From Octopus sinensis (lineage: Eukaryota): a DNA stretch of 64,000 nt. The notes under the pieces are model-generated. The model was not told the origin of the DNA and searched no databases. It was given only the letters and a program-made list of their open reading frames with translations. Shown piece by piece: positions 4,344 through 61,955 of the stretch. Location of the stretch: contig NC_043023.1 of assembly GCF_006345805.1 (NCBI RefSeq), positions 1 to 64,000 of the forward strand. Reading direction: 5' to 3'. The translations under genes and the position numbers were made by a program. The stretch's first letter is position 1; the number at the start of each line of letters is the position of its first letter.

Positions 4344-4508
4344 TGTCTCCGTAAACAATAACTCTCTACTTGAGTGGGCCATAGTGCCCAAATTCTGACT
4401 TGAAAGACTTCACCAGGTGGTGCTATTAAGTTAGACATGGCCTGGGCCAATAATGGCGGAAACCTATCAAAGTATCAAATTATACATATATATATATATA
4501 CATATATA

Positions 4509-4591
<83 letters not shown>

Positions 4592-4605
4592 AATATATAT
4601 ACATA

Positions 4606-4653
<48 letters not shown>

Positions 4654-4687
4654 TACATATATATATAATATATACATATATATATAC

Positions 4688-4720
<33 letters not shown>

Positions 4721-4730
4721 CATTATATAT

Positions 4731-4764
<34 letters not shown>

Positions 4765-4775
4765 CATATATATAC

Positions 4776-4809
<34 letters not shown>

Positions 4810-4836
4810 TATATGTATGTATGTATATATATATAT

Positions 4837-4868
<32 letters not shown>

Positions 4869-4881
4869 ATATGTATGTATG

Positions 4882-4930
<49 letters not shown>

Positions 4931-5069
4931 TACATATATATATATATACATATATATATATACATATATATAATATATATACATTATATATATATACATA
5001 TATATATATATACATATTATATATATATATAATATAATATATTATATATATATACATATATATATATAT

Positions 5070-5118
<49 letters not shown>

Positions 5119-5150
5119 ATATATATATAATATATATATATATTATATAT
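4197..5150. repeat. (TA)n microsatellite field with a ~130-bp non-TA island at 4346-4479
   Basis: Direct inspection. Confidence 0.95.
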
Positions 5151-5288
5151 AGAGGGCATAATTATACATACATGCCAGGAGGCATTATATATACTTGCCA
5201 AACGCTAAGAGGGACAATCAGTCATTTCTACCAAAAATATTACTAATCCACCGAATGCAATTTTTCAAAGTAAGACATTTAAAAATAT

Positions 5289-5336
5289 AGGCCTGTATCA
5301 CAGTGATTTCATACTTACGTAATCATCAGCAGGCCT
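5289..5336 (-). ncRNA. Type I hammerhead ribozyme (480-bp unit, copy 1)
   Basis: Minus strand: aggccug-CUGAUGA-u uac guaa gua u-GAAA-ucac u guga-UA-caggccu; 7-bp stem I, intact core, near-palindromic stem III. Confidence 0.85.
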
Positions 5337-5766
5337 GAATGTATTATAAATAAACAACGACCCTGCCTCGCTTAAGCCGAACAGCTAACTGATCAACATC
5401 AACGAAGCACATGGGTGAGTTTATATATTACATCCGGGTGAATGGCAAACTTTTACAAAATTGCATTTCGGGAGAGGAAAAGTTTTTTCGGAATAAAAAT
5501 TTTGCAATTAAGGACAACTACTTAATAAGGAAAACTTAACAAGAAATTGTCAGGTAGATAGCGTAAAAACCTCATAAGAGAAAAAATTTCGAAAATAATT
5601 ATTCTTATTGAACATATTAATTTATATATAGAGGGCATAATTATACATACATGCCAGGAGGCATTATATACTTGCCAAACGCTAAGAGGGACAATCAGTC
5701 ATTTCTACCAAAAATATTACTAATCCCACCGAATGCAATTTTTCAAAGTAAGACATTTAAAAATAT

Positions 5767-5814
5767 AGGCCTGTATCACAGTGATTTCATACTTACGTAA
5801 TCATCAGCAGGCCT
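5767..5814 (-). ncRNA. Type I hammerhead ribozyme (480-bp unit, copy 2)
   Basis: Identical motif to 5289-5336. Confidence 0.85.
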
Positions 5815-6272
5815 GAATGTATTATAAATAAACAACGACCCTGCCTCGCTTAAGCCGAACAGCTAACTGATCAACATCAACGAAGCACATGGGTGAGTTT
5901 ATATATATTACATCCGGGTGAATGGCAAACTTTTACAAAATTGCATTTCGGGAGAGGAAAAGTTTTTTCGGAATAAAAATTTTGCAATTAAGGACAACTA
6001 CTTAATAAGGAAAACTTAACAAGAAATTGTCAGGTAGATAGCGTAAAAACCTCATAAGAGAAAAAATTCGAAAATAATTATTTCTTATTGAACATATTAA
6101 TTTATATATAGAGGGCATAATTATACATACATGCCAGGAGGCATTATATACTTGCCAAACGCTAAGAGGGACAATCAGTCATTTCTACCAATGTGCTTCG
6201 TTGATGTTGATCAGTTAGCTGTTCGGCTGGGGGCTTAAGCGAGGCAGGGTCGTTGTTTATTATAATACATTC

Positions 6273-6320
6273 AGGCCTGCTGATGATTACGTAAGTATGA
6301 AATCACTGTGATACAGGCCT
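6273..6320 (+). ncRNA. Type I hammerhead ribozyme (480-bp unit, copy 3)
   Basis: aggcctg CTGATGA ttacgtaagtat GAAA tcactgtga TA caggcct read directly on +. Confidence 0.85.
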
Positions 6321-6752
6321 ATATTTTTAAATGTCTTACTTTGAAAAATTGCATTCGTGGGATTAGTAATATTTTTGGTAGAAATGACTGATTGTCCCTC
6401 TTAGCGTTGGCAAGTATATATAATGCCTCCTGGCATGTATGTATAATTATGCCCTCTATATATAAATTAATATGTTCAATAAGAAATAATTATTTTCGAA
6501 ATTTTTTCTCTTATGAGGTTTTTACGCTATCTACCTGACAATTTCTTGTTAAGTTTTCCTTATTAAGTAGTTGTCCTTAATTGCAAAATTTTTATTCCGA
6601 AAAAACTTTTCCTCTCCCGAAATGCAATTTTGTAAAAGTTTGCCATTCACCCGGATGTAATATATATAAACTCACCCATGTGCTTCGTGATGTTGATCAG
6701 TTAGCTGTTCGGCTTAAGCGAGGCAGGGTCGTTGTTTATTTATAATACATTC

Positions 6753-6799
6753 AGGCCTGTGATGATTACGTAAGTATGAAATCACTGTGATACAGGCCT
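6753..6799 (+). ncRNA. Hammerhead copy 4, lacking core C3
   Basis: aggcctg-TGATGA...; single-base deletion (real or a read error). Confidence 0.55.
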
Positions 6800-7553
6800 A
6801 TATTTTTAAATGTCTACTTTGAAAAATTGCATTCGGTGGGATTAGTAATATTTTTGGTAGAAATGACTGATTGTCCCTCTTAGCGTTTGGCAAGTATATA
6901 TAATGCCTCCTGGCATGTATGTATAATTATGCCCTCTATATATAAATTAATATGTTCAATAAGAAATAATTATTTTCGAAATTTTTTCTCTTATGAGGTT
7001 TTTACGCTATCTACCTGACAATTTTGTTAAGTTTTCCTTATTAAGTAGTTGTCCTTAATTGCAAAATTTTTATATATATAATTATATATATATATATATA
7101 TAATATATATATATATATGTATGTATGTATAATATATATATATATAATATATATACGTATACGTACATATATACATACGTACATATATGTATGTATGGCA
7201 GTTATCATTTTCGTACCTTCCGAAGTTTGTTGAAATATTTCCTTGTCACTCTTATTTTACTCAGAGAAACAACACATGCAATATGGTATGAAATCTTTGT
7301 AACGATCATCACTGGAGACAGGGGAAATAAACAAATCAATGATGTCCATATTCCTACTAATCGACAATCTTTCTTATTTGACTAATATGAACACTTATCC
7401 TGACAGTGCGATTATATCTTAAGGTCATCGACAGAAAACGTGAGGCCAATCTTAATATCCATCTGGTATTTATTATATCGGCCTATTTTACCGAACCGCT
7501 AAGCAGTTAGAGCGTAAAAAGGTAACACCAGTTGTCAAGAAGAGACGAATACC

Positions 7554-7789
7554 TATTTCTTTATTACCCACAAAGGGCTAAACATAGATGGGACAAACAA
7601 GGACAGACATAGGTATTAAGTCGATTCCATAGACCCCAGTGCGTAACTGGCAATTAATTTATCGACCCCGAAAGGATGAAAGGCAAAGTCAACCTCGGCG
7701 GAATTTGAACTCACAGCGTAACGACAGACGAAATACGGCAACGCATTTCGTCCGGCGTGCTAACGTTTCTGCCAGCTCGCCGCCTTCTA
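7554..7789 (-). mobile_element. tRNA-headed SINE, family B, with 14-bp TSD, nested in a degraded family A copy
   Basis: Head ggcggcgagctggcagaa...gagttcaaattcc; central gcctttcatcctttcggggtcgataaa; TSD aagagacgaatacc at 7540-7553 and 7790-7803. Confidence 0.85.
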
Positions 7790-13079: not shown

Positions 13080-13232
13080 TATATATATATTATATATATA
13101 TATATATATATCACAATCAAGGAACGGCCATAATAGGCCATTCACCCACTAGAAATAACAGCCAAAAGCTTTAACCGCAAAATAACATCAATTCCGTAAA
13201 CCAGGAGAAAATTAAAAAACATTTACCCTGTA

Positions 13233-13339
13233 ATTTCTTATACGATGCACCGTTTCGTCTACTGTTTAATGGTAAACTAACCTGATTAAATTAAATCAAG
13301 CCAATCTACCATAGGCCCTTAGATTCATCAGTAAGAAAT
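13233..13339 (-). ncRNA. Type I hammerhead ribozyme in the inverted 505-bp copy
   Basis: Reverse complement of atttctta CTGATGA atcta...tagac GAAA cggtgcatcg TA taagaaat. Confidence 0.85.
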
Positions 13340-13926
13340 AGCCAAGTCGGAACAGATATTTTTCACGAGGCATTCCCGTCCCTGCCTCGGCAATATCTGA
13401 CCTAAAATTTTCAAATCATCGTACTCGCGCCAAATTTATCGGCAGCAAATAAATATAAGCCGCCGATTCCATTACGGAATTAACCAGAAAATTCATAATT
13501 AATCAATATAGGGTGCCAAAAAAATTTTGTAGAATTTTTTTTTTTTGCCACCAGCGGCCTAGTGGGAAAAAATTTTGCGGTTATTTTGCGGTTAAAGCTT
13601 TTGGCTGTTATTTCTAGTGGGTGAATGGCCTATTATGGCCGTTCCTTGATTGTGATGTTGAACTTAAAAATGGTCTATGACTATTTAATTTTTTCCCACT
13701 AGGCCGCTGGTGGCAAAAAAAAAAAAAAAAAAAATTCTACAAAATTTTTTGCGACCCTATATTGATTAATTATGAATTTTCGGTTAATTCCGTAATGGAA
13801 TCGGCGGCTTATATTATTTGCTGCCGAAAAATTTGGCGCGAGTGCGATGATTTGAAAATTTTAGGTCAGATATTGCCGAGGCAGGGACGGGAATGCCTCG
13901 TGAAAAATATCTGTTCCAACTTGGCT

Positions 13927-14033
13927 ATTTCTTACTGATGAATCTAAGGGCCTATGGTAGATTGGCTTGATTTAATTTAATCAGGTTAGTTTACCATTAA
14001 ACAGTATAGGAAACGGTGCATCGTATAAGAAAT
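13927..14033 (+). ncRNA. Type I hammerhead ribozyme, first direct 505-bp copy
   Basis: 8-bp stem I atttctta/taagaaat; CTGATGA 13935-41; GAAA 14010-13; self-complementary stem III cggtgcatcg; GUA cleavage triplet; stem II base weakened (tatag variant). Confidence 0.75.
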
Positions 14034-14434
14034 TACAGGGTAAATGTTTTTTAATTTTCTCCTGGTTTACGGAATTGATGTTATTTTGCGGTTAAAGCTT
14101 TTGGCTGTTATTTCTAGTGGGTGAATGGCCTATTATGGCCGTTCCTTGATTGTGATGTTGAACTTAAAAATGGTCTATGACTATTTAATTTTTTCCCACT
14201 AGGCCGCTGGTGGCAAAAAAAAAAAAAAAAAAAAAAAAATTCTACAAAATTTTTTTGCCACCCTATATTGATTAATTATGAATTTTCTGGTTAATTCCGT
14301 AATGGAATCGGCGGCTTATATTTATTTGCTGCCGATAAATTTGGCGCGAGTGCGATGATTTGAAAATTTTAGGTCAGATATTGCCGAGGCAGGGACGGGA
14401 ATGCCTCGTGAAAAATATCTGTTCCGACTTGGCT

Positions 14435-15721
14435 AATTCTTACTGATGAATCTAAGGGCCTATGGTAGATTGGCTTGATTTAATTTAATCAGGTTAGTTT
14501 ACCATTAAACAGTATAGGAAACGGTGCATCGTATAAGAAATTACAGGGTAAATGTTTTTTAATTTTCTCCTGGTTTACGGAATTGATGTTATTTTGCGGT
14601 TAAAGATTTTGGCTGTTATTTCTAGTGGGTGAATGGCCTATTATGGCCGTTCCTTGATTGTGATGTTGAAATTAAAAATGGTCTATGACCATTTAATTTT
14701 TTCCCACTAGGCCGCTGGTGGCAAAAAAAAAAAAAAAAAAAATTCTACAAAATTTTTTTGCCACCCTATATTGATTAATTATGAATTTTCTGGTTAATTC
14801 CGTAATGGAATCGGCGGCTTATATTTTTTTGCTGCCGATAAATTTGGCGCGAGTGCGATGATTTGAAAATTTTAGGTCAGATATTGCCGAGGCAGGGACG
14901 GGAATGCCTCGTGAAAAATATCTGTTCCGACTTGGCTATTTCTTACTGATGAATCTAAGGGCCTATGGTAGATTGGCTTGATTTAATTTAATCAGGTTAG
15001 TTTACCATTAAACAGTATACGAAACGGTGCATCGTATAAGAAATTACAGGGTAAATGTTTTTTAATTTTCTCCTGGTTTACGGAATTGATGTTATTTTGC
15101 GGTTAAAGCTTTTGGCTGATATTTCTAGTGGGTGAATGGCCTATTATGGCCGTTCCTTGATTGTGATGTTGAACTTAAAAATGGTCTATGACTATTTAAT
15201 TTTTTCCCACTAGGCCGCTGGTGGCAAAAAAAAAAAAAAAAATTCTACAAAATTTTTTTGCCACCCTATATTGATTAATTATGAATTTTCTGGTTAATTC
15301 CGTAATGGAATCGGCGGCTTATATTTATTTGCTGCCGATAAATTTGGCGCGAGTGCGATGATTTGAAAATTTTAGGTCGGATATTGCCGAGGCAGGGACG
15401 GGAATGCCTCGTGAAAAATATCTGTTCCGACTTGGCTATTTCTTACTGATGAATCTAAGGGCCTATGGTAGATTGGCTTGATTTAATTTAATCAGGTTAG
15501 TTTACCATTAAACAGTATAGGAAACGGTGCATCGTATAAGAAATTACAGGGTAAATGTTTTTTAATTTTCTCCTGGTTACGGAATTGATGTTATTTTGCG
15601 GTTAAGCTTTTGGCTGTTATTTCTAGTGGGTGAATGGCCTATTATGGCCGTTCCTTTATTGTGATGTTGAACTTAAAAATGGTCTATGACTATTTAATTT
15701 TTTCCCACTAGGCCGCTGGTG

Positions 15722-15754
<33 letters not shown>

Positions 15755-18700
15755 CTACAAAATTTTTTTGGGACCCTATATTGATTAATTATCAATTTTC
15801 TGGTTAATTCCGTAATGGAATCGGCGGCTTATATTTATTTGCTGCCGAAAAATTTGGCGCGAGTGCGATTATTTGAAAATTTTAGGTCAGATATTGCCGA
15901 GGCAGGGACGGGAATGCCTCGTGAAAAATATCTGTTCCGACTTGGCTATTTCTTACTGATGAATCTAAGGGCCTATGGTAGATTGGCTTGATTTAATTTA
16001 ATCAGGTTAGTTTACCATTAAACAGTAGACGAAACGGTGCATCGTATAAGAAATTACAGGGTAAATGTTTTTTAATTTTCTCCTGGTTTACGGAATTGAT
16101 GTCATTTTGCGGTTAAAGCTTTTGGCTGTTATTTCTAGTGGGTGAATGGCCTATTATGGCCGTTCCTTGATTGTGATGTTGAACTTAAAAATGGTCTATG
16201 ACTATTTAATTTTTTCCCACTAGGCCGCTGGTGGCAAAAAAAAACAAAAAAAAAACAATTCTACAAAATTTTTTTGGCACCCTATATTGATTAATTATGA
16301 ATTTTCTGGTTAATTCCGTAATGGAATCGGCGGCTTATATTTATTTGCTGCCGATAAATTTGGCGCGAGTGCGATGATTTGAAAATTTTAGGTCACATAT
16401 TGCCGAGGCAGGGACGGGAATGCCTCGTGAAAAATATCTGTTCCGACTTAGCTATTTCTTACTGATGAATCTAAGGGCCTATGGTAGATTGGCTTGATTT
16501 AATTTAATCAGGTTAGTTTACCATTAAACAGTATAGGAAACGGTGCATCGTATAAGAAATTACAGGGTAAATGTTTTTTAATTTTCTCCTGGTTTACGGA
16601 ATTGATGTTATTTTGCGGTTAAAGCTTTTGGCTGTTATTTCTAGTGGGTGAATGGCCTATTATGGCCGTTCCTTGATTGTGATGTTGAACTTAAAAATGG
16701 TCTATGACTATTTAATTTTTTCCCACTAGGCCGCTGGTGGCAAAAAAAAAAAAAAAAAAAAAATTCTACAAAATTTTTTTGCGACCCTATATTGATTAAT
16801 TATGAATTTTCTGGTTAATTCCGTAATGGAATCGGCGGCTTATATTTATTTGCTGCCGATAAATTTGGCGCGAGTGCGATGATTTGAAAATTTTAGGTCA
16901 GATATTGCCGAGGCAGGGACGGGAATGCCTCGTGAAAAATATCTGTTCCAACTTGGCTATTTCTTACTGATGAATCTAAGGGCCTATGGTAGATTGGCTT
17001 GATTTAATTTAATCAGGTTAGTTTACCATTAAACAGTATACGAAACGGTGCATCGTATAAGAAATTACAGGGTAAATGTTTTTTAATTTTCTCCTGGTTT
17101 ACGGAATTGATGTTATTTTGCGGTTAAAGCTTTTGGCTGTTATTTCTAGTGGGTGAATGGCCTATTATGGCCGTTCCTTGATTGTGATGTTGAAATTAAA
17201 AATGGTCTATGACCATTTAATTTTTTCCCACTAGGCCGCTGGTGGCAAAAAAAAAAAAAAAAAAAAAAAAATTCTACAAAATTTTTTTGCCACCCTATAT
17301 TGATTAATTATGAATTTTCTGGTTAATTCCGTAATGGAATCGGCGGCTTATATTTATTTGCTGCCGATAAATTTGGCGCGAGTGCGATGATTTGAAAATT
17401 TTAGGTCAGATATTGCCGAGGCAGGGACGGGAATGCCTCGTGAAAAATATCTGTTCCGACTTGGCTATTTCTTACTGATGAATCTAAGGCCTATGGTAGA
17501 TTGGCTTGATTTAATTTAATCAGGTTAGTTTACCATTAACACAGTATATCGAAACGGTGCATCGTATAAGAAATTACAGGGTAAATGTTTTTTAATTTTT
17601 CCTGGTTTACGGAATTGATGTTATTTTGCGGTTTAAGCTTTTGGCTGTTATTTCTAGTGGGTGAATGGCCTATTATGGCCGTTCCTTGATTGTGATGTTG
17701 AACTTAAAAATGGTCTATGACTATTTAATTTTTTCCCACTAGGCCGCTGGTGGCAAAAAAAAAAAAAAAAAAAAAAAAATTCTACAAAATTTTTTGGCAC
17801 CCTATATTGATTAATTATGAATTTTCTGGTTAATTCCGTAATGGAATCGGCGGCTTATATTTATTTGCTGCCGATAAATTTGGCGCGAGTGCGATGATTT
17901 GAAAATTTTAGGTCAGATATTGCCGAGGCAGGGACGGGAATGCCTCGTGAAAAATATCTGTTCCGACTTGGCTATTTCTTACTGATGAATCTAAGGGCCT
18001 ATGGTAGTATTGGCTTGATTTAATTTAATCAGGTTAGTTTACCATTAAACAGTATAGGAAACGGTGCATCGTATAAGAAATTACAGGGTAAATGTTTTTT
18101 AATTTTCTCCTGGTTTACGGAATTGATGTTATTTTGCGGTTAAAGCTTTTGGCTGTTATTTCTAGTGGGTGAATGGCCTATTATGGCCGTTCCTTGATTG
18201 TGATGTTGAACTTAAAAATGGTCTATGACTATTAATTTTTTCCCACTAGGCCGCTGGTGGCAAAAAAAAAAAAAAAAAAAAAAAAAAATTCTACAAAATT
18301 TTTTTGCGACCCTATATTGATTAATTATCAATTTTCTGGTTAATTCCGTAATGGAATCGGCGGCGGCTTATTTATTTGCTGCCAAAAATTTGGCGCGAGT
18401 GCGATTATTTGAAAATTTAGGTCAGATATTGCCGAGGCAGGGACGGGAATGCTCGTGAAAAATATCTGTTCCGACTTGGCTATTTCTTACTGATGAATCT
18501 AAGGGCCTATGGTAGATTGGCTTGATTTAATTTAATCAGGTTAGTTTACCATTAAACAGTATAGGAAACGGTGCATCGTATAAGAAATTACAGGGTAAAT
18601 GTTTTTTAATTTTCTCCTGGTTTACGGAATTGATGTTATTTTGCGGTTAAAGCTTTTGGTTGTTATTTCTAGTGGGTGAATGGCCTATTATGGCCGTTCC

Positions 18701-21607
18701 TTGATTGTGATGTTGAACTTTAAAATGGTCTATGACTATTTAATTTTTTCTCACTAGGCCGCTGGTGGCAAAAAAAAAAAAAAAAAAATTCTACAAAATT
18801 TTTTTGCCACCCTATATTGATTAATTATGAATTTTCTGGTTAATTCCGTAATGGATTCGGCGGCTTATATTTATTTGCTGCCGATAAATTTGGCGCGAGT
18901 GCGATGATTTGAAAATTTTAGGTCGGATATTGCCGAGGCAGGGACGGGAATGCCTCGTGAAAAATATCTGTTCGACTTGGCTTATTCTTACTGATGAATC
19001 TAAGGGCCTATGGTAGATTGGCTTGATTTAATTTAATCAGGTTAGTTTACCATTAAACAGTATAGGACGGTGCATCGTATAAGAAATTACAGGGTAAATT
19101 TTTTTAATTTTCTCCTGGTTTACGGAATTGATGTTATTTTGCGGTTAAAGCTTTTGGCTGTTATTTCTAGTGGGTGAATGGCCTATTATGGCCGTTCCTT
19201 GATTGTGATGTTGAACTTTAAAATGGTCTATGACTATTTAATTTTTTCCTATTAGGCCGCTGGTGGCAAAAAAAAAAAAAAAAAAAAAAAAATTCTACAA
19301 AATTTTTTTGCCACCCTATATTGATTAATTATGAATTTTCTGGTTAATTCCGTAATGGAATCGGCGGCTTATATTTATTTGCTGCCGATAAATTTGGCGC
19401 GAGTGCGATGATTTGAAAATTTTAGGTCAGATATTGCCGAGGCAGGGACGGGAATGCCTCGTGAAAAATATCTGTTCCGACTTGGCTATTTCTTACTGAT
19501 GAATCTAAGGGCCTATGGTAGATTGGCTTGATTCAATTTAATCAGGTTAGTTTACCATTAAACAGTAGGACGAAACGGTGCATCGTATATGAAATTACAG
19601 GTAAATGTTTTTTGATTTCCTCCTCCTGGTTTACGGAATTGATGTTATTTTGCGGTTAAAGCTTTTGGCTGTTATTTCTAGTGGGTGAATGGCCTATTAT
19701 GGCCGTTCCTTGATTGTGATGTTGAACTTAAAATGGTCTATGACTATTTAATTTTTTCCCACTAGGCCGCTGGTGGCAAAAAAAACAAAAAAAAACAATT
19801 CTACAAAATATTTTTGGCACCCTATATTGATTAATTATGAATTTTCTGGTTAATTCCGTAATGGAATCGGCGGCTTATATTTATTTGCTGCCGATAAATT
19901 TGGCGCGAGTGCGATGATTTGAAAATTTTAGGTCAGATATTGCCGAGGCAGGACGGGAATGCCTCGTGAAAAATATCTGTTCCGACTTAGCTATCTTACT
20001 GATGATCTAAGGGCCTATGGTAGATTGGCTTGATTTAATTTATCAGGTAGTTTTACCATTAAACAGTAGACGATACGGTGCATCGTATAAGAAATTACAG
20101 GGTAAATGTGTTTTTAATTTTCTCCTGGTTTACGGAATTGATGTTATTCTGCGGTTAAAGCTTTTGCTGTTATTTCTAGTGGTGAATGGCCTATTATGGC
20201 CGTTCCTTGATTGTGATTTGAACTTGAAAATGGTCTATGACTATTTAATTTTTTCCCACTAGGCCGCTGGTGGCACAAAAAAAAAAAAAAAAAAAAATTC
20301 TACAAAATTTTTTTGCGACCCTATATTGATTAATTATGAATTTTCTGGTTAATTCCGTAATGGAATCGGCGGCTTATATTTATTTGCTGCCGATAAATTT
20401 GGCGCGAGTGCGATGATTTGAAAATTTTAGGTCAGATATTGCCGAGGCAAGGACGGGAATGCCTCGTGAAAAATATCTGTTCCGACTTGGCTATTTCTTA
20501 CTGATGAATCTAAGGGCCTATGGTAGATTGGCTTGATTTAATTTAATCAGGTTAGTTTACCATTAACAGTAGACGAAACGGTGCATCGTATAAGAAATTA
20601 CAGGGGTAATGTTTTTTAATTTTCTCCTGGTTTACGGAATTGATGTTATTTTGCGGTTAAAGCTTTTGGCTGTTATTTCTAGTGGGTGAATGGCCTATTA
20701 TGGCCGTTCCTTGATTGTGATGTTGAACTTAAAAATGGTCTATGACTATTTAATTTTTTCCCACTAGGCCGCTGGTGACAAAAAAAAAAAAAAAAAAAAA
20801 AAAAAATTCTACAAAATTTTTTTGCCACCCTATATTGATTAATTATGAATTTTCTGGTTAATTCCGTAATGGAATCGGCGGCTTATATTTATTTGCTGCC
20901 GATAAATTTGGCGCGAGTGCGATGATTTGAAAATTTTAGGTCAGATATTGCCGAGGCAGGGACGGAATGCCGCGTGAAAAATATCTTTTCCGACTTGGCT
21001 ATTTCTTACTGATGAATCTAAGGGCCTATGGTAGATTGGCTTGATTTAATTTAATCAGGTTAGTTTACCATTAAACAGTATAGGAAACGGTGCATCGTAT
21101 AAGAAATTACAGGGTAAATGTTTTTTAATTTTCTCCTGGTTTACGGAATTGATGTTATTTTGCGGTTTAAGCTTTTGGCTGTTATTTCTAGTGGGTGAAT
21201 GGCCTATTATGGCCGTTCCTTGATTGTGATGTTGAACTTTAAAATGTCTATGACTATTTAATTTTTTCTCACTAGGCCGCTGGTGGCAAAAAAAAAAAAA
21301 AAAAATTCTAGCAAAATTTTTTTGCCACCCTATATTGATTAATTATGATTTTCTGGTTAATTCCGTAATGGAATCGGCGGCTTATATTTATTTGCTGCCG
21401 ATAAATTTGGCGCGAGTGCGATGATTTGAAAATTTTAGGTCGGATATTGCCGAGGCAGGGACGGGAATGCCTCGTGAAAAATATCTGTTTCGACTTGGCT
21501 ATTTCTTACTGATGAATCTAAGGGCCTATGGTAGATTGGCTTGATTTAATTTAATCAGGTTAGTTTACCATTAAACAGTATAGGAAACGGTGCATCGTAT
21601 AAGAAAT
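14435..21607 (+). ncRNA. Remaining per-unit hammerhead copies of the 505-bp array (one ~107-nt motif per unit)
   Basis: Same motif in every unit; the copies with cores at 18991 and 19999 have a damaged GAAA. Confidence 0.75.
15948..16054 (+). ncRNA. Type I hammerhead ribozyme, best-paired 505-bp copy (fifth)
   Basis: Stem I 15948-55/16047-54; core 15956-62 and 16031-34; stem II tcta/taga plus a 19-bp hairpin 15975-16018; stem III 16035-44; predicted cleavage after 16046. Confidence 0.88.
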
Positions 21608-21666
21608 TACAGGGTAAATGTTTTTTAATTTTCTCCTGGTTTACGGAATTGATGTTATTTTGCGGT

Positions 21667-21766
21667 NNNNNNNNNNNNNNNNNNNNNNNNNNNNNNNNNN
21701 NNNNNNNNNNNNNNNNNNNNNNNNNNNNNNNNNNNNNNNNNNNNNNNNNNNNNNNNNNNNNNNNNN
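21667..21766. other. Assembly gap (100 N)
   Basis: Run of N; the true array length is unknown. Confidence 1.
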
Positions 21767-39129: not shown

Positions 39130-39960
39130 AAAACAAATTTGCGATTCATAAAACAAAGTGAAAAATTTTAAAAACCATTATAACTAATCAAACACCTTAA
39201 GCAAAAGGCAAACCACATAACCTAAAGAAATTATTAACAAAGGTAAGATTCAACATGAACAAACAGGATAACACATTCACAGTATCCAAGTGCAATGATA
39301 ACAGATGTGGAATGTGTCACTACATGCATATGGGTTGATCCATTAGAACAAAAAATGGACAGATTTTCACAAATGCAGATATGAACTGCAGAAGTAGAAA
39401 TTTGATCTACTGCATTAAATGTCCGAATTGTGAGGAATTATATATAGGCGAGACAGGGAGTGCATAATCGGAACGCTCACAAGTTCACAGACAACAAATC
39501 CAGAACACCAATGTTTGCCAAATTCCATTGAGCGAATGTATAGAGACATGTGGTCAGAAAACGTTTCTAATTTTTCCTTTCCACAAACTACATGACCCAA
39601 GTGAGGTTGGAAGAAAGATAAAAGAAAAACGGTTTATTAAAATGTTCAAACCTGTTCTGAACGGAAATAACAGCAATTATATAACAGCCAGTTATTGAGG
39701 TGGATTAAAAAATATAAACAAGTTGCAGAATATCAGTACGGCTGGCAGACTGTGATGTTTAAGAGCTTACGGATTGATCAAAAAAGTATTCGAAAAATTT
39801 GTCTGGTTGGAGCGTTCTAAGAGATACTAAAGTTATCAAGGACTGAACTGTCAGTTAAACACATTTGAAATCTGATGAGTTCACTGTGTATGAAAGCGCT
39901 AATTTTGTTAAAATACCATAAAAAAACGTGAAAACCAAACTGTTTTAACTTTATTCAACT
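39130..39960 (+). mobile_element. Penelope-like element 3' portion: Cys-rich linker, GIY-YIG endonuclease pseudogene and 3' region with HHR
   Basis: My translation of ~39205-39698: NLKKLLTKVRF...KCNDNRCGMC...MNCRSRNLIYCIKCPNCEELYIGETG..ER..VHRQQI...RKIKEKRFIKMFKPVLN, with in-frame stops. Confidence 0.88.
39867..39906 (+). ncRNA. Minimal hammerhead downstream of the PLE endonuclease
   Basis: gaaat CTGATGA gttcactgtgtat GAAA gcgc TA atttt; palindromic AGCGCT stem III; stem II weak. Confidence 0.7.
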
Positions 39961-48204: not shown

Positions 48205-48729
48205 ATAATACTGAAATAATGTTTTTTGTCGAATCATGTATAATATAAACACGTTTCAGAAAATAACATTATTAACTATGGAATTTATGGCTGATGAAGT
48301 GTCTGACATCTCATTCAAAATGAGACACAACTACTTCTGTAAAGACACAGAGTGGCTACCACATGGATATATACGCGTTCCATAAAATAGTAATATTATC
48401 ATAAATAGAAATATAGATATTATGGCAGTTAAAGAATGTCTGGTACTTCATTTAGAATTACACACGACCCCATCTGTGAAGCCATTGAGGGATTATCTCT
48501 AATGATGGACAGATGTACATTCCAGAAAATAGCAATACCGTTGTCTGTAAATAATTATAAGGTATTATCACTCAATTTTTGTTGACACCGAAGAATTTTT
48601 TTTCAAACGTATTACTGATTATTCTAAATTTTTTATGTAAGAAAGGAAACATTTGATGTACTGTCTCAAAACATGATAAATAAAAAACAAGAGGAGGAGG
48701 AACATGAAAGAAAAAGAAAAAGAAGGAAG

Positions 48730-48790
<61 letters not shown>

Positions 48791-48917
48791 GTTTCAAATT
48801 TTGCTACAAGCTCAGCAATTTTTGGGGAGTGGATGAGTCGATTACATCGACCCCGGTGTCCAATGAGTACTTATTTTATCGACCCCAAAAGAATGAAAGG
48901 CAAAGGCGACCTCGGCG

Positions 48918-48972
<55 letters not shown>

Positions 48973-48973
<1 letters not shown>

Positions 48974-50260
48974 GGAAAATACGCAAGCTGCTGAGTTGTA
49001 ATAGGATGCACCACCCAAAGGCAGACGCAGATCGCCTTTACCTTCCCAGAGCCCAAGGAGGTCGAGGCCTGATCCAATTTGAACTAGCTTACAAAACAAC
49101 CACAATTGGACTGGCCAAATATCTCGAAATATCGAATGACTGGATGCTAAAGCTCGTGGAAAATCACGAGAGACGAAAGAAGCTTCATCTATTATAAAGG
49201 AAAGCAAAAAATTGCTATTGATCTCGTGCAGGATACCAAACTGAACAACCCGAGGGAAGTACGGCAACTATTGTTGCAAAGAAGGTGAAAATGATGGCAA
49301 CGAAAAAAGCGCACGAGCAATTGGCTGATAGGTGGGAGGAGAAACCTCTGCACGGCAATATGTGACCCGCAGCAAACAAGCTGATGTTGACCAGAAGCAA
49401 ACCCATCAGTGGCTACGGAGCTCAGGGCTAAAAGCAGAGAGCGAAGGTTTCATCCTGGCTGCTCAAGATCAAAGCCTATTAACCCGGAACTACCAGGCCA
49501 ATGTGATGAAAAATGGAGCAGACCCAAAATGCCGATTCTGCAACGACATGATTGAAACAGTGGACCACCTAATCTCTGGATGTAAAGTCTTAGCACCTGT
49601 GGAGTATAAATTAAGACATGACAGAGTTGGCCAATATCTACACTGGCTAATAAGTCGGCATTACAATATCAAAACTGCCGACAAGTGGTATAATCACCAC
49701 CCTGAGGCTGTAACTGAAGGAGAAAATGTAACCATTCTGTGGGACTTTCCAGTACACACAGACCGAACCATCAAGGCCAATAAACCAGATATTGTTGTGA
49801 AAGACCAAAACAATAAAGTTTGCTTATTGATCGACATGAGCATCCCCTGTGATCATAATATCTCAACGAAAGAGTTGACAAGCTCAGAAAATATAAAGAC
49901 CTACTCATTGAAATTGAGAAAATGTGGCATCTCAAGGCGGTTACAATACCAGTGATCGTAGGAGCACTAGGAATGATCAAGAAGGGAACCGAAAATTATA
50001 TGAGAATGATCCCTGGCTTACCATCCCTGCAAGAAGTGCAAAAGATTGTCTTAACTGGTACATCACACGTATTGAGAAGAGCATTGTCGATGTGAGAACT
50101 GTTGCTGCTCATGTATTTTAATTAACTTAAAAAAAAAAAAAATGAACGAACTATTGAGTTTGGTTTAATGGCCTACCAATGTATACTATGAGTTTCTTTG
50201 CCCTAGGAGTCGGGAAGACACTCGGCAAGAAATGGAAGCAAATTTGAAAGAAGAAAAAAA

Positions 50261-56207: not shown

Positions 56208-56527
56208 GATTGACGTGTTGTCACATCGGCTCCGAAGGTAATCGTTTATTTTGACTATTTATAGCCCTCATTTTCTGTACATTTTTGTAAATAAGGTGTG
56301 TAAAGCACCCAACTTTCGTTTGAGGGTTTTTCCAAGGGAGGAATTCGCCCCTAGGGGAAGTTTCAACCCTAATTAATTTGTATATTTTTCTTCTCGACAT
56401 TTTTTAATGTCGAGAAATTTTATTGTCGAACGCTGGTCAAATTCCTTCATGGACCAGCATTTCCCTAGCCTTGAAACGCTAGGAGAGAAAAAGAACTCCT
56501 GCACGCACACACATTCTAATAGAAGAC

Positions 56528-58048
56528 ATGACCAGCAAGACATCAAAGACAAACCTGAGTGACGTGGAAGTGAACGCTGCAACCACTTTCGTTAACAGTC
56601 CTGTCACCACCACCACCACCACCACCAACAACAACAACGATATCGTCGTTTTGTCGTCTACGATAACGGCCAACAACAACACCACTACTACAAGTGACAC
56701 CTCTGCCACCAACACTACCACCAAACCCAATTTTGCACAAGCATCAAAACAAAAAAAGACAATATTACACTTCACAACAGAACAAATAAAACACACAAAA
56801 GTCCTGTTAACTGAAGATGGTTCACATCTACGCTTACATATACCACAAAACATCATAGACAACACACAAAAGAAAACAATAATATACAAAGTCTTAAACG
56901 CAAAAACACGCAGACCAGAACAAGCACAACCAGAACTGATCGAAAAATGTTTACGGCCAATATGGGCCTATAAAAATTATTTAAATTGGGGAAACAAATA
57001 TGCCACGATACAGGTTCGCTTCGACAGCGAAGAAAGAGCGAAAGAACTTTCGACGCTCACCTTACAGTCGGAAAAACTCATTTTAATTCTGACCTACCTT
57101 GGTCAACGCGTGACCAAAATTTCGATTAAAAATGTCCCTCCAGAAATAGAATCACAATGGCTGTTGTCAGCCGTTTGCTACAAAATAGAGGAGAATATAA
57201 ATATTCTTGAATTTGCCACCTTAGAGGAAAAGAAATGGTCGGGGAAAATGGTTCAGTTATTGATGCAAATTGATCAAAACTAAATCAATAATATCCCCCA
57301 CCAAATTGAGCTGCCAGACGGCAATTTCCTTTACGTGGTGGTAGAGTGTAGGAGGCCTCGCTGTTACTTGTGTGGCAGCGAGGAACACCTAAAAAATGAT
57401 TGCCCAACAGCAAAAAAACAACAACAAAAAACAGAACAAGAACAACAACCACAACAAGGAAAAAGTCAAAAGAAAAAAGAACCACTACTACCCACACCAC
57501 CATCAGCACAGAGGCCAAGCAAAGGGAGTACGAAACCAAACTCGCCAACACTAACAAATGAACATACAACAACATCTGAAAAAACACCAACAACAGCAAG
57601 AACAAAAGAAAGAGTAAAACCAAAAGACAATACAAAAACTGATTCCTTTTTCCCCACATCACACACACCACACACAAGCAGTCAACAACCAACATCAACG
57701 AAAACAACAACACAACTAATTACACAAATACACATTGAAGCCTACATCATGCCCCTACCCGTTTCCGATTCCTCGGAAATTTCGTCGGAAGACGAAAGCA
57801 CTGAGGAATGGCAAATAGCCAGAAAAGGAAGGAGGAAAAGGAGCAAAAAAAAAAAGAACCAAATCCAATACAAACGCAAACAAAGCAGAAAGATATACAT
57901 CTCCCAAAGACATCTCAAACCCTACCACAAACAATATCAACGCCACAAAAATATATACAAAGAATATTCTCACAGCCATAGACACCAAAAACACAGAGTT
58001 GATGAAATACATCAACACAAACACAAACATTACAGAAAACGACATTAA
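56528..58048 (+). pseudogene. Tx1/L1-type ORF1 (gag-like, CCHC zinc knuckle) with one in-frame stop at 57281-83
   Basis: ORFs 56528-57283 and 57335-58048 share a frame; VTKISIKNVPPEI (RRM-like); CRRPRCYLCGSEEHLKNDCP; low-complexity tail with EWQIARKGRRKR. Confidence 0.8.
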
Positions 58049-60629: not shown

Positions 60630-61640
60630 TTGAGGGAATGAAGCAGGTAAAATCCAGGCTACATATGTTTCCCATTTTGCAGAACCTCGGAAATAATAAC
60701 TCAACAAGGAGTACTCGCTAGCTACTCATAATCTCCGGGGCTAATTCCATAATATTTCTGGTAGTCTGTATAGAGACGACGTCCTGTTTGCGATCCAGAA
60801 CTTTAGTAACCGCGAAATAGAACATCTTAGGAAAAGAATCGGTATTTAAAAAAAAACAAAAAAACGTTGGCCTTAGCATCTCTTTCAGTTACAGTATTAA
60901 AACAGTTAATTTTCTAGATGTCACTCTAGATTTACAAAACAACGCATTCTACCCTTACCATAAACCCGGTGAGAAACTTTACTATGTTAACTTTTCCTCC
61001 AATCACCCTCCGCCATCTGTCCTAAATTCCATCGTGGACAGCGTATCTTATTGGACCTCATCCCTATCCGCCAGTAAAGAAATGCTTGAATATTATAATT
61101 CTGCCCCACAACGCGCCGGATATAAAAATTCGATTGAATACATCCTTATTTGGAACGATCCTTCCTGCACTAAACCTGGCACCACAGATATATCTCCCAT
61201 ATTCCACCTTTCCTCATCTCCCTAAATTTTACCGTAGGAGCAAACCTAAGAGGAACTCCACCCACCCTGTGATCCTGAATCCCAAATCCATCACTGCCCA
61301 TCGAAATCCACACCAGTGTGCACTTCAATACCCCCAGCTACACTCGGGTAACCCTCTAAACCGGAATAAACTGGCCAGGACACGTGACGTTATCTGGTTC
61401 CATCTTCACTTTGCCCTTAATGTTCAGACCAGATCACCCAAACTCTTCTTTGCTCTACATGACAAACATTTCCCTAAGTCTAGTCCTCTTAGAAAAACCT
61501 CCAACACCCAATCGATTAAATTTTCCTACTCCAGCACAAGTAACATTAGTGCTATAATCCGACGTCTGAACAATAAGAAACTTGGGAATCAGCAATTAGT
61601 TAACTTTAACCACAGTAATACAACTCACCCTAACCTTCGC
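60630..61640 (+). mobile_element. Penelope-like element RT remnant (YRDD type)
   Basis: LYRDDVL; VNFLDVTLDL..FYPYHKP..YVNFSSNHPP; RDVIWFH...DKHFPKSSPLRK..NTQSIKFSYSSTSNISAII. Confidence 0.85.
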
Positions 61641-61644
61641 ACGG

Positions 61645-61955
61645 GTGAGGGCGCGTGGCTTAGTGGTTAGGGCATTCGGCTCATGATCGTAGGTTGTGAG
61701 TTCGATTCCCGGCGACGCGTTGTGTCCTTGAGCAAGACACTTTTATTTCACGTTGCTCCTCCACTCGCTGGCAAAAATGAGTTGTACTTGTACTTCAAAG
61801 GTCAGCCTTGTCACTCTCTGTGTCACGCTGATTATCCCCGAAACTACGTTAAGGGTACACGTGCCTGTGGAATGCTCAGCCATTTGCGCGTTAATTTCAC
61901 GACAGCTGTTCCGTTGATCGTATCAGCTGGGACCCTCGTCGTCGTACCGCGGAGT
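61645..61955 (+). mobile_element. tRNA-headed SINE, family C (other pieces 43590-43800 and 36060-36230 minus)
   Basis: ggcgcgtggcttagtggttaggg...gagttcgattccc...ccttgagcaagacac. Confidence 0.8.

What the first reader, a model, noticed from the sequence alone, without database searches (positions are those of the whole stretch)
5149..7072. Second, unrelated ~480-bp hammerhead repeat array with a central inversion
Seen: each unit has aggcctg-CTGATGA-ttacgtaagtat-GAAA-tcactgtga-TA-caggcct, a 48-nt minimal HHR. Two copies point left (5289, 5767) and two point right (6273, 6753), embedded in (TA)n. I see no sequence similarity to the 505-bp unit outside the catalytic core, and no ORF. Inference: an independent retrozyme/pLTR family only 6 kb from the first, suggesting such elements are diverse and common in this genome.
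Basis: partly seen in the sequence, partly recalled or inferred. Interest (0 to 1): 0.8.

Follow-up and report, generated by a model that had tools for sequence, protein, structure and literature searches.

The report
Hammerhead retrozyme with Penelope-type inverted insertion
A 479-base non-coding repeat carrying a hammerhead motif, predicted to cut its own RNA in pairs, sits head-to-head in two arms inside a TA microsatellite, the layout Penelope-like jumping genes leave, so it is likely a new passenger of those elements, and one public run shows its RNA apparently A-to-I edited right through the ribozyme core.

Summary
The array is real: 2.2 units on the minus strand (5143-6191) joined head-to-head to 1.8 units on the plus strand (6192-7073), (TA)n on both sides, no ORF, no substitutions between copies. 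Three of four hammerheads are intact; the fourth lacks C3. A lone motif rarely folds into the active form (0.4%); two neighbouring motifs fold as a double hammerhead in the unconstrained minimum-energy structure. Public contigs show a heterogeneous family in several organisms with the same head-to-tail joint, variants that keep or restore stems I and II, a second insertion end running into (TA)n, and a sister family. One run shows clustered A>G on both strands, absent from two DNA-type runs, including 7 of 11 sites across the ribozyme core. The neighbouring 505-bp array has the same inverted build, and a broken Neptune-like Penelope element with its own hammerhead lies 32 kb away. Verdict: a new member of the animal non-LTR retrozymes, likely moved by Penelope-like enzymes. 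Cleavage, circular RNA, the helper element and this locus's junction in reads are not shown.

The parts
4481..5151 (.). Left (TA)n microsatellite, likely target site
   Evidence: boundary with the arm blurred over 9 nt
5143..6191 (-). Left (inverted) arm, 2.19 units; 5' end at the junction (phase 64 after the cleavage site), 3' end at phase 152 in a TATA-like run that merges with (TA)n
5289..5336 (-). Type I hammerhead copy 1, intact core, predicted cut between 5296 and 5295
5337..5436 (-). Predicted long hairpin just upstream of the hammerhead; its 3' arm holds the 13-nt stretch (5358-5370) shared with the 505-bp unit
5767..5814 (-). Type I hammerhead copy 2, intact core, predicted cut between 5774 and 5773; predicted to pair with copy 1 as a double hammerhead
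   Evidence: family variants and editing at this motif
6191..6192 (.). Head-to-head junction of the two arms, 1-nt overlap, not a palindrome
   Evidence: not seen in reads
6192..7073 (+). Right arm, 1.84 units; 5' end at phase 362, 3' end at phase 281 running into (TA)n
   Evidence: a second 3' end at about phase 274 running into (TA)n in one contig of run X7
6273..6320 (+). Type I hammerhead copy 3, intact core, predicted cut after 6313
6457..6465 (+). TATA-like run inside the unit (possible promoter element, untested; also the place where the left arm ends)
   Evidence: sequence
6753..6799 (+). Hammerhead copy 4, lacks core C3 (assembly error or private loss)
   Evidence: no such deletion among the 12 indels listed (4 more not shown)
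7071..7196 (.). Right (TA)n microsatellite

Best explanation
This is a 479-bp non-coding tandem repeat with a type I hammerhead motif per unit, lying as two head-to-head arms inside (TA)n, and it is likely a non-autonomous passenger (non-LTR retrozyme) of Penelope-like elements whose RNA is predicted to self-cleave as a double hammerhead. Steps: (1) tandem units are transcribed (shown indirectly for the family by editing marks in one run; promoter unknown); (2) two successive motifs pair through their near-palindromic helix III and cut after AUA, releasing a 479-nt monomer (predicted), which would be circularised by a host ligase as in other animal retrozymes (inferred from PMC7229834); (3) a Penelope-like RT/GIY-YIG protein, likely of the Neptune type, cuts both strands of a (TA)n site and copies a circular or uncut multimeric template from internal start points on each strand, through the cleavage sites, and the two cDNAs join at their truncated ends, giving tandem units plus an inverted arm in one event (inferred); (4) read-through of such an inverted insertion would fold into about 740 bp of duplex, a substrate for ADAR that would also disable the ribozyme (duplex predicted; editing seen for the family, source locus unknown).
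For: Anatomy. Zero substitutions among the 6 pieces of both arms while the family differs at 11 places at 5% or more in each of two DNA-type runs: one template. None of the 4 arm ends falls on the cleavage site. Double hammerhead is the unconstrained MFE for two isolated motifs (-35.1 against -23.4 kcal/mol for two monomers; active monomer 0.4% of its ensemble) and for the real 551-nt stretch (-145.4 against -136.2). Monomer folds far better than shuffles (circular z -5.4, 40 shuffles; linear z -6.2); head-to-tail joint in 4 of 4 runs; one closed 511-nt cycle in X14; variant at 5800 (57% of depth in X2) makes 10.1:11.1 an A-U pair; variant at 5769 turns a stem I G-C into G.U; no listed substitution in the core; sister family changes only the unpaired centre of helix III and most of stem I; A>G at 9 of 16 variant places in X7 against 0 of 11 in X1 and 0 of 11 in X2; second 3' end into (TA)n. 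Same inverted build in the 505-bp array. Neptune-like remnant with own hammerhead at 39162-39908. Literature: inverted 5'-truncated copy and microsatellite bias are PLE marks (PMC8557442; PMC3846280); a PLE protein cuts and extends both strands at AT-rich DNA from internal RNA sites (PMC11167929).
Against: No cleavage assay and no circular RNA shown; Li et al. found cleavage in only 1 of 9 predicted elements and the anole PLE hammerhead needed protein and was dispensable for insertion in vitro. U.U at 10.1:11.1 and a 3-bp stem II predict weak activity for this locus. Rfam does not score the motif. No sequence link between the unit and any PLE ORF was found, the remnant's 3' end included. No change-of-strand joint was listed in any of 4 runs, so neither this junction nor inversions elsewhere in the family were seen in reads. 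A target-site duplication cannot be told from background. RNA evidence is one run whose kind is a guess, in contigs of depth 2-13.
Confidence: 0.75

Rival explanations
1. The unit is only the pseudo-LTR of an autonomous Penelope-like family, and this locus is a stack of 5'-truncated ends of that element, not an element of its own.
For: pLTRs carry type I hammerheads (PMC4209133) and TATA-like runs and occur inverted (PMC3846280); retrozymes in Xenopus are related to pLTRs; one X7 contig leaves the unit at 5636 into unrelated sequence, and 67 loose ends were not shown.
Against: Units follow each other with the same joint and no coding remnant; the joint is in 4 of 4 runs and X14 holds the whole unit as a closed cycle; the share of laid sequence that runs on into unlike sequence is 0 in X1 and X2. 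Independent truncations would not give equal units.
Confidence: 0.12
2. A satellite spread at DNA level (unequal crossing over or DNA circles) with a vestigial hammerhead; the inversion came from template switching or break repair in the AT-rich tract.
For: Short tandem array in an unstable microsatellite; local amplification of pLTR-derived units is discussed by Li et al.; copy 4 has a broken core.
Against: Family variants keep or restore pairing and spare the core; a second copy ends at nearly the same phase in (TA)n; an unrelated unit 6 kb away has the same inverted build; the monomer folds well above shuffles.
Confidence: 0.08
3. The tandem family is real but the inversion at this locus is an assembly chimera from a fold-back long read or a mis-join between (TA)n tracts.
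For: Copies differ only by short indels (19 indel runs against one reference monomer), typical of little-corrected long reads; the junction was not seen in reads.
Against: The junction is asymmetric (phases 64 and 362) and the unique flanks beyond the (TA)n are not mirror images; the 505-bp array shows the same build with its own asymmetric junction; a single-locus junction would lie far below the listing threshold in a high-copy family.
Confidence: 0.05

Closest known systems
Animal non-LTR retrozymes (Cervera and de la Pena 2020, PMC7229834; Li, Clavereau and Pollet 2026, bioRxiv 10.64898/2026.07.22.740005)
   Same: Head-to-tail non-coding units, one type I hammerhead each, GC below 45% (33% here), highly self-paired monomer, predicted dimer cleavage as in axolotl, co-existence with PLEs.
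   Different: Unit 479 bp (above the 170-400 nt of the 2020 paper, within the 51-972 bp of the preprint); new sequence; U.U or A-U at 10.1:11.1; the parts I read describe no inverted arm, no (TA)n target and no observed A-to-I editing (the 2020 paper only suggests editing as a possible cause of heterogeneity).
EN+ Penelope-like elements, Neptune/Nematis/Naiad type insertions (PMC8557442, PMC3846280, PMC11167929)
   Same: Partial tandems with an inverted 5'-truncated copy head-to-head, microsatellite target, 3' ends at internal template positions, hammerhead in the repeat.
   Different: No RT or GIY-YIG reading frame; whole insert is repeat units; no 30-40-bp tail or target duplication could be shown.
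Minimal PLE hammerheads (Cervera and de la Pena 2014, PMC4209133)
   Same: Type I topology, palindromic 15.2-16.2 region, dimer dependence predicted.
   Different: Helix III is long (4 bp plus 3-nt loop alone, 10 bp in the dimer), helix II short, no G10.1-C11.1 pair, no extra base between 9 and 10.1.
Non-autonomous Chlamys elements such as MRC1 (PMC8557442)
   Same: Non-coding, multicopy head-to-tail insertions moved by a PLE.
   Different: Those lack canonical hammerheads and resemble their helper at the 3' end; no helper match was found here.

Membership tests
non-LTR retrozyme | Short head-to-tail tandem units | tested here: met
   478-480-bp period; joint in 4 of 4 runs
non-LTR retrozyme | Complete type I hammerhead in at least two consecutive units, MFE below -5 kcal/mol (criterion of Li et al.) | tested here: met
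   Copies 1 and 2 consecutive and intact; motif MFE -13.7; copy 4 lacks C3
non-LTR retrozyme | No protein coding, GC below 45% | tested here: met
   Longest frame 59 codons; GC 33%
non-LTR retrozyme | Highly self-paired monomer | tested here: met
   Circular fold 66% paired, z -5.4
non-LTR retrozyme | Transcribed | tested here: inconclusive
   Editing-type A>G/T>C clusters in one run whose kind is a guess, family level only
non-LTR retrozyme | Self-cleavage and circular monomeric RNA | not testable with these tools
   A closed 511-nt contig fits a circle or a uniform tandem array alike
non-LTR retrozyme | PLEs present in the same genome | tested here: met
   Broken GIY-YIG PLE with hammerhead at 39162-39908; an intact helper was not seen
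autonomous Penelope-like element | RT plus GIY-YIG reading frame between the repeats | tested here: not met
Penelope-like insertion pattern | Inverted 5'-truncated copy head-to-head with the tandem | tested here: met
   (assembly only; junction not seen in reads)
Penelope-like insertion pattern | AT-rich or microsatellite target | tested here: met
   (TA)n on both sides; second end into (TA)n
Penelope-like insertion pattern | Target-site duplication or 30-40-bp tail | tested here: inconclusive
   Left-right flank score 118, reached by 3 of 19 other (TA)n stretches; the two 3' ends differ by 129 nt
minimal PLE hammerhead | No or very short helix III, long helix II, G10.1-C11.1, extra base after A9 | tested here: not met
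   against PMC4209133
Rfam hammerhead families | Covariance model score | tested here: not met
   No hit at gathering score or at E up to 10

The most novel reading that the evidence does not exclude
Retrozymes of this animal are inserted by Penelope-like enzymes as tail-out inverted arrays that silence themselves: read-through RNA meets the antisense arm first, folds into long duplex and is hyper-edited by ADAR, which rewrites A13 and the cleavage-site A17 of the hammerhead, so that A-to-I editing acts as an off-switch for the ribozyme and as a source of the RNA heterogeneity reported for retrozymes; the 13-nt stretch shared by two otherwise unrelated units would be the signal read by the helper enzyme.
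Probability: 0.2. Interest if true: 0.72.

Novelty: new member of a known kind. Interest (0 to 1): 0.45.

Why it matters
Mobilisation of animal retrozymes by Penelope-like enzymes is proposed from co-occurrence and pLTR kinship; here two unrelated hammerhead units 6 kb apart carry the physical marks of PLE insertion (inverted arm, (TA)n target, internal 3' ends), which makes the idea testable with a purified PLE protein. The young, substitution-free insert gives a clean double-hammerhead construct. The editing marks through the core offer a concrete test of two open points in the retrozyme paper: why RNA copies differ from genomic ones and what blocks the ribozyme in vivo. Hyper-editing of repeats as such is ordinary in animals.

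Tried and rejected
No whole genome is held, so copy number and adjacency to PLE ORFs could not be surveyed. Rfam: 0 hits at gathering over the window; 9 chance-level hits, none a ribozyme, at E up to 10. Core-pattern scans: 0 matches in metagenome contigs and viral contigs. Search for loci of a full-length PLE relative in metagenome contigs: 91 pattern hits, none confirmed. Run search: 20 of 24 rows hold the stretch (8 at half of the words or more; 10 studies, 8 organism labels); no RNA holder listed on record; only 4 were laid. Depth along the unit runs opposite ways in X1 and X2 and was not used. No place where many molecules begin or end was listed (contigs cannot show one). Twin priming from one contiguous RNA, as in L1, was considered: the arm phases leave a 210-nt gap here and about 75 nt overlap in the 505-bp array, so no fixed continuity; not excluded on a multimer. 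Target-site duplication: inconclusive. Unit against the 3' end of the PLE remnant: only the core aligns. A homolog search meant to name the host gave no cephalopod-named hit among 120 listed. The dimer ensemble probability printed looks miscomputed and was not used. Earlier findings by place and by sequence: none. Paper searches: retrozyme + octopus, 2 listed, neither on such an element by title or abstract; hammerhead + A-to-I + retrotransposon + tandem repeat + self-cleavage, 0; hammerhead + Penelope + Octopus, 4 listed.

Full report
Observation. The array is present as described. Tandem Repeats Finder gives 2.2 units of 480 bp at 5143-6191 and 1.8 units at 6187-7073 between (TA)n tracts at 4481-5151 and 7071-7196. 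The left arm reads on the minus strand and the right arm on the plus strand, so their 5' ends meet at 6191/6192 and both 3' ends run into (TA)n. Complete type I hammerhead cores start at 5329 (-), 5807 (-) and 6280 (+); the copy at 6753 lacks C3. Against one reference monomer the other five pieces show 0 substitutions and 19 indel runs, all but one of 1-2 nt. That pattern suggests long-read errors on copies that are practically identical, hence a young insert from one template. The longest stop-to-stop frame is 59 codons and GC is 33%. Counting from the cleavage site, the arms start at phases 64 and 362 and end at 152 and 281; the junction has a 1-nt overlap. No end falls on the cleavage site.

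The ribozyme. Stem I has 7 bp, stem II 3 bp with a GNRA loop and U.U at 10.1:11.1, and helix III is an 11-nt near-palindrome with one central mismatch; the triplet is AUA. A single motif misfolds: the active form is 0.4% of the ensemble. Two motifs co-fold, unconstrained, into a double hammerhead at -35.1 kcal/mol against -23.4 for two active monomers, and the real 551-nt stretch holding copies 1 and 2 does the same (-145.4 against -136.2). The monomer folds well above shuffles (linear z -6.2, 0 of 100; circular z -5.4, 40 shuffles). Rfam does not score the motif. It is not a 'minimal' hammerhead as defined by Cervera and de la Pena 2014 (PMC4209133, parts 1-2 of 4 read).

The family in public data. 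20 of 24 listed runs hold the stretch, under 8 organism labels and 10 studies, none on record as RNA. I laid 4 of them on one unit, 5560-6039. X1 and X2 give 628 and 3643 contigs, a heterogeneous repeat family; depth is no copy number. The head-to-tail joint is in 4 of 4 runs, and X14 holds the unit as one 511-nt contig whose ends overlap by 30 nt, which fits a circle or a uniform tandem alike. Two listed variants fall in the motif's stems: 5800 (57% of depth in X2, 2.5% in X1) makes 10.1:11.1 an A-U pair (-13.1 against -11.7 kcal/mol), and 5769 (98% in X1, 38% in X2) turns a stem I G-C into G.U. No substitution is listed in the core. A sister family in X7 and X14 shares 5732-5764; the X14 contig goes on into a motif with another base at the unpaired centre of helix III and another stem I. 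One X7 contig ends the unit at 5980 (about phase 274) and runs into (TA)n, 7 nt from the end of the right arm. No change-of-strand joint was listed, so the junction of this locus is unconfirmed; 67 loose ends, 4 indels and 4331 pieces were not shown.

Editing marks. In X7, 9 of 16 variant places are A>G and 2 are T>C on the plus strand; X1 and X2 have 0 A>G of 11 each (Fisher p 0.003 for X7 against X1; the sites are clustered, so not independent). At the 9 A>G places X1 shows none and X2 none at 8 (0.8% at one). The 30 loose letters shown behind 5767, read by eye against the window, are the hammerhead with 7 of 11 T changed to C and one other change, the known family variant. On the ribozyme strand these are A>G at A17, A13, helix II, helix III and stem I, on a molecule that spans the cleavage site uncut. 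Both strands are thus edited, as expected for a long sense-antisense duplex. The whole insert folds with 741 pairs between the arms, and RNA entering from either flank meets the antisense arm first. Limits: one run, kind guessed, contig depths 2-13 (3.7 for the core contig), no DNA of the same individual, and the RNA may come from any copy. That G at 17 or 13 blocks cleavage is recalled knowledge; inosine was not tested. X14 shows no A>G.

Surroundings. The 505-bp array starts in (TA)n with one inverted arm (13110-13574) joined head-to-head to a plus-strand tandem that ends in an N gap. The two units share only the core and a 13-nt stretch (12 of 13) lying 34 and 52 nt upstream of the motif: 36 of 3000 shuffles and 5 of 129 real stretches score as high, and plain scoring is not significant. 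A 10-nt part of it occurs in the window only in the two arrays. This is a lead, not proof. At 39162-39908 lies a broken element with a Cx4CxxC linker, a GIY-YIG domain (E 2.9e-5), 56-57% identity to RT+GIY-YIG proteins (4 hits of 246 candidates) and its own small hammerhead. The linker marks Neptune and Nematis PLEs and is thought to favour microsatellite targets (PMC8557442, passages). Its 3' end does not match our unit beyond the core.

Mechanism. Shown: tandem non-coding units, three intact cores, inverted arm, (TA)n flanks, family-wide joint, pairing-preserving variants, editing-type changes. Predicted: double-hammerhead cleavage and the long duplex. Inferred: circularisation as in coral, mussel and axolotl retrozymes (PMC7229834, passages and sections 14 and 17), and insertion by a PLE protein. 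The anole PLE protein cuts and extends both strands of AT-rich DNA and starts at internal RNA sites (PMC11167929, parts 1-2 of 4), which would give two arms with internal 3' ends; inverted head-to-head repeats are typical of PLE inserts (PMC8557442; PMC3846280, passages, which explains them by self-priming instead). Since both arms run through cleavage sites and carry the same alleles, the template was a circle or an uncut uniform multimer; I cannot tell which. Against activity: 8 of 9 predicted Xenopus elements did not cleave (Li et al. 2026 preprint, parts 1-3 of 5), and the anole hammerhead was dispensable for insertion in vitro.

Novelty. The element meets the sequence criteria for non-LTR retrozymes and is a new member. 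The texts I read do not describe inverted arms, (TA)n targets or observed editing for retrozymes, and searches listed no paper on such an element in cephalopods or on editing of a retrozyme core (listings only); the library lacks many journals, and supplements of the retrozyme papers, which list further invertebrate families, were not seen. Two earlier unchecked findings of this scan describe the same build for ribozyme-free units in other genomes; they agree but are no independent support. Interest 0.45: a known class, with unusually clear PLE insertion marks and a testable editing lead.

Noticed in passing
window 13110-21666: 505-bp hammerhead array with the same build: (TA)n, one inverted arm (13110-13574), then about 16 plus-strand units ending in the N gap (21667-21766). 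Its motif has about 68 nt between CUGAUGA and GAAA with a 22-bp hairpin, and its junction repeats 11 nt, like reiterative copying.
   Followed up: partly
window 39162-39908: Broken, 5'-truncated Penelope-like element: Cx4CxxC linker, GIY-YIG (Pfam E 2.9e-5), 56-57% identical to 698-aa RT+GIY-YIG proteins, followed by a small hammerhead with a 6-nt palindromic helix III and then a TG/TA tract; Neptune or Nematis type by the linker.
   Followed up: partly
window 5732-5764 (runs X7 and X14): A sister family shares these 33 nt and, in X14, the hammerhead core half, with another base in the centre of helix III and another stem I.
   Followed up: no
window 5636 (run X7): One contig leaves the unit here into 50 nt of GC-rich unrelated sequence: a 5' junction or another relative.
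   Followed up: no
window 6229-6235: 7-nt insertion in the first right-arm unit, near the tip of the predicted upstream hairpin; the only indel longer than 2 nt among the copies.
   Followed up: no
window 60821-61670: Frame fragments that look like the thumb region of a Penelope-like RT (recalled motifs; no Pfam hit).
   Followed up: partly
window 48628-49955 and 56483-58048: Fragments of two non-LTR retrotransposons (zf-RVT below cut-off; zinc knuckle).
   Followed up: no
window 7554-7787 and many other places: Abundant SINE-like repeats and microsatellites that recall octopus genomes (recalled, not shown by any search).
   Followed up: no
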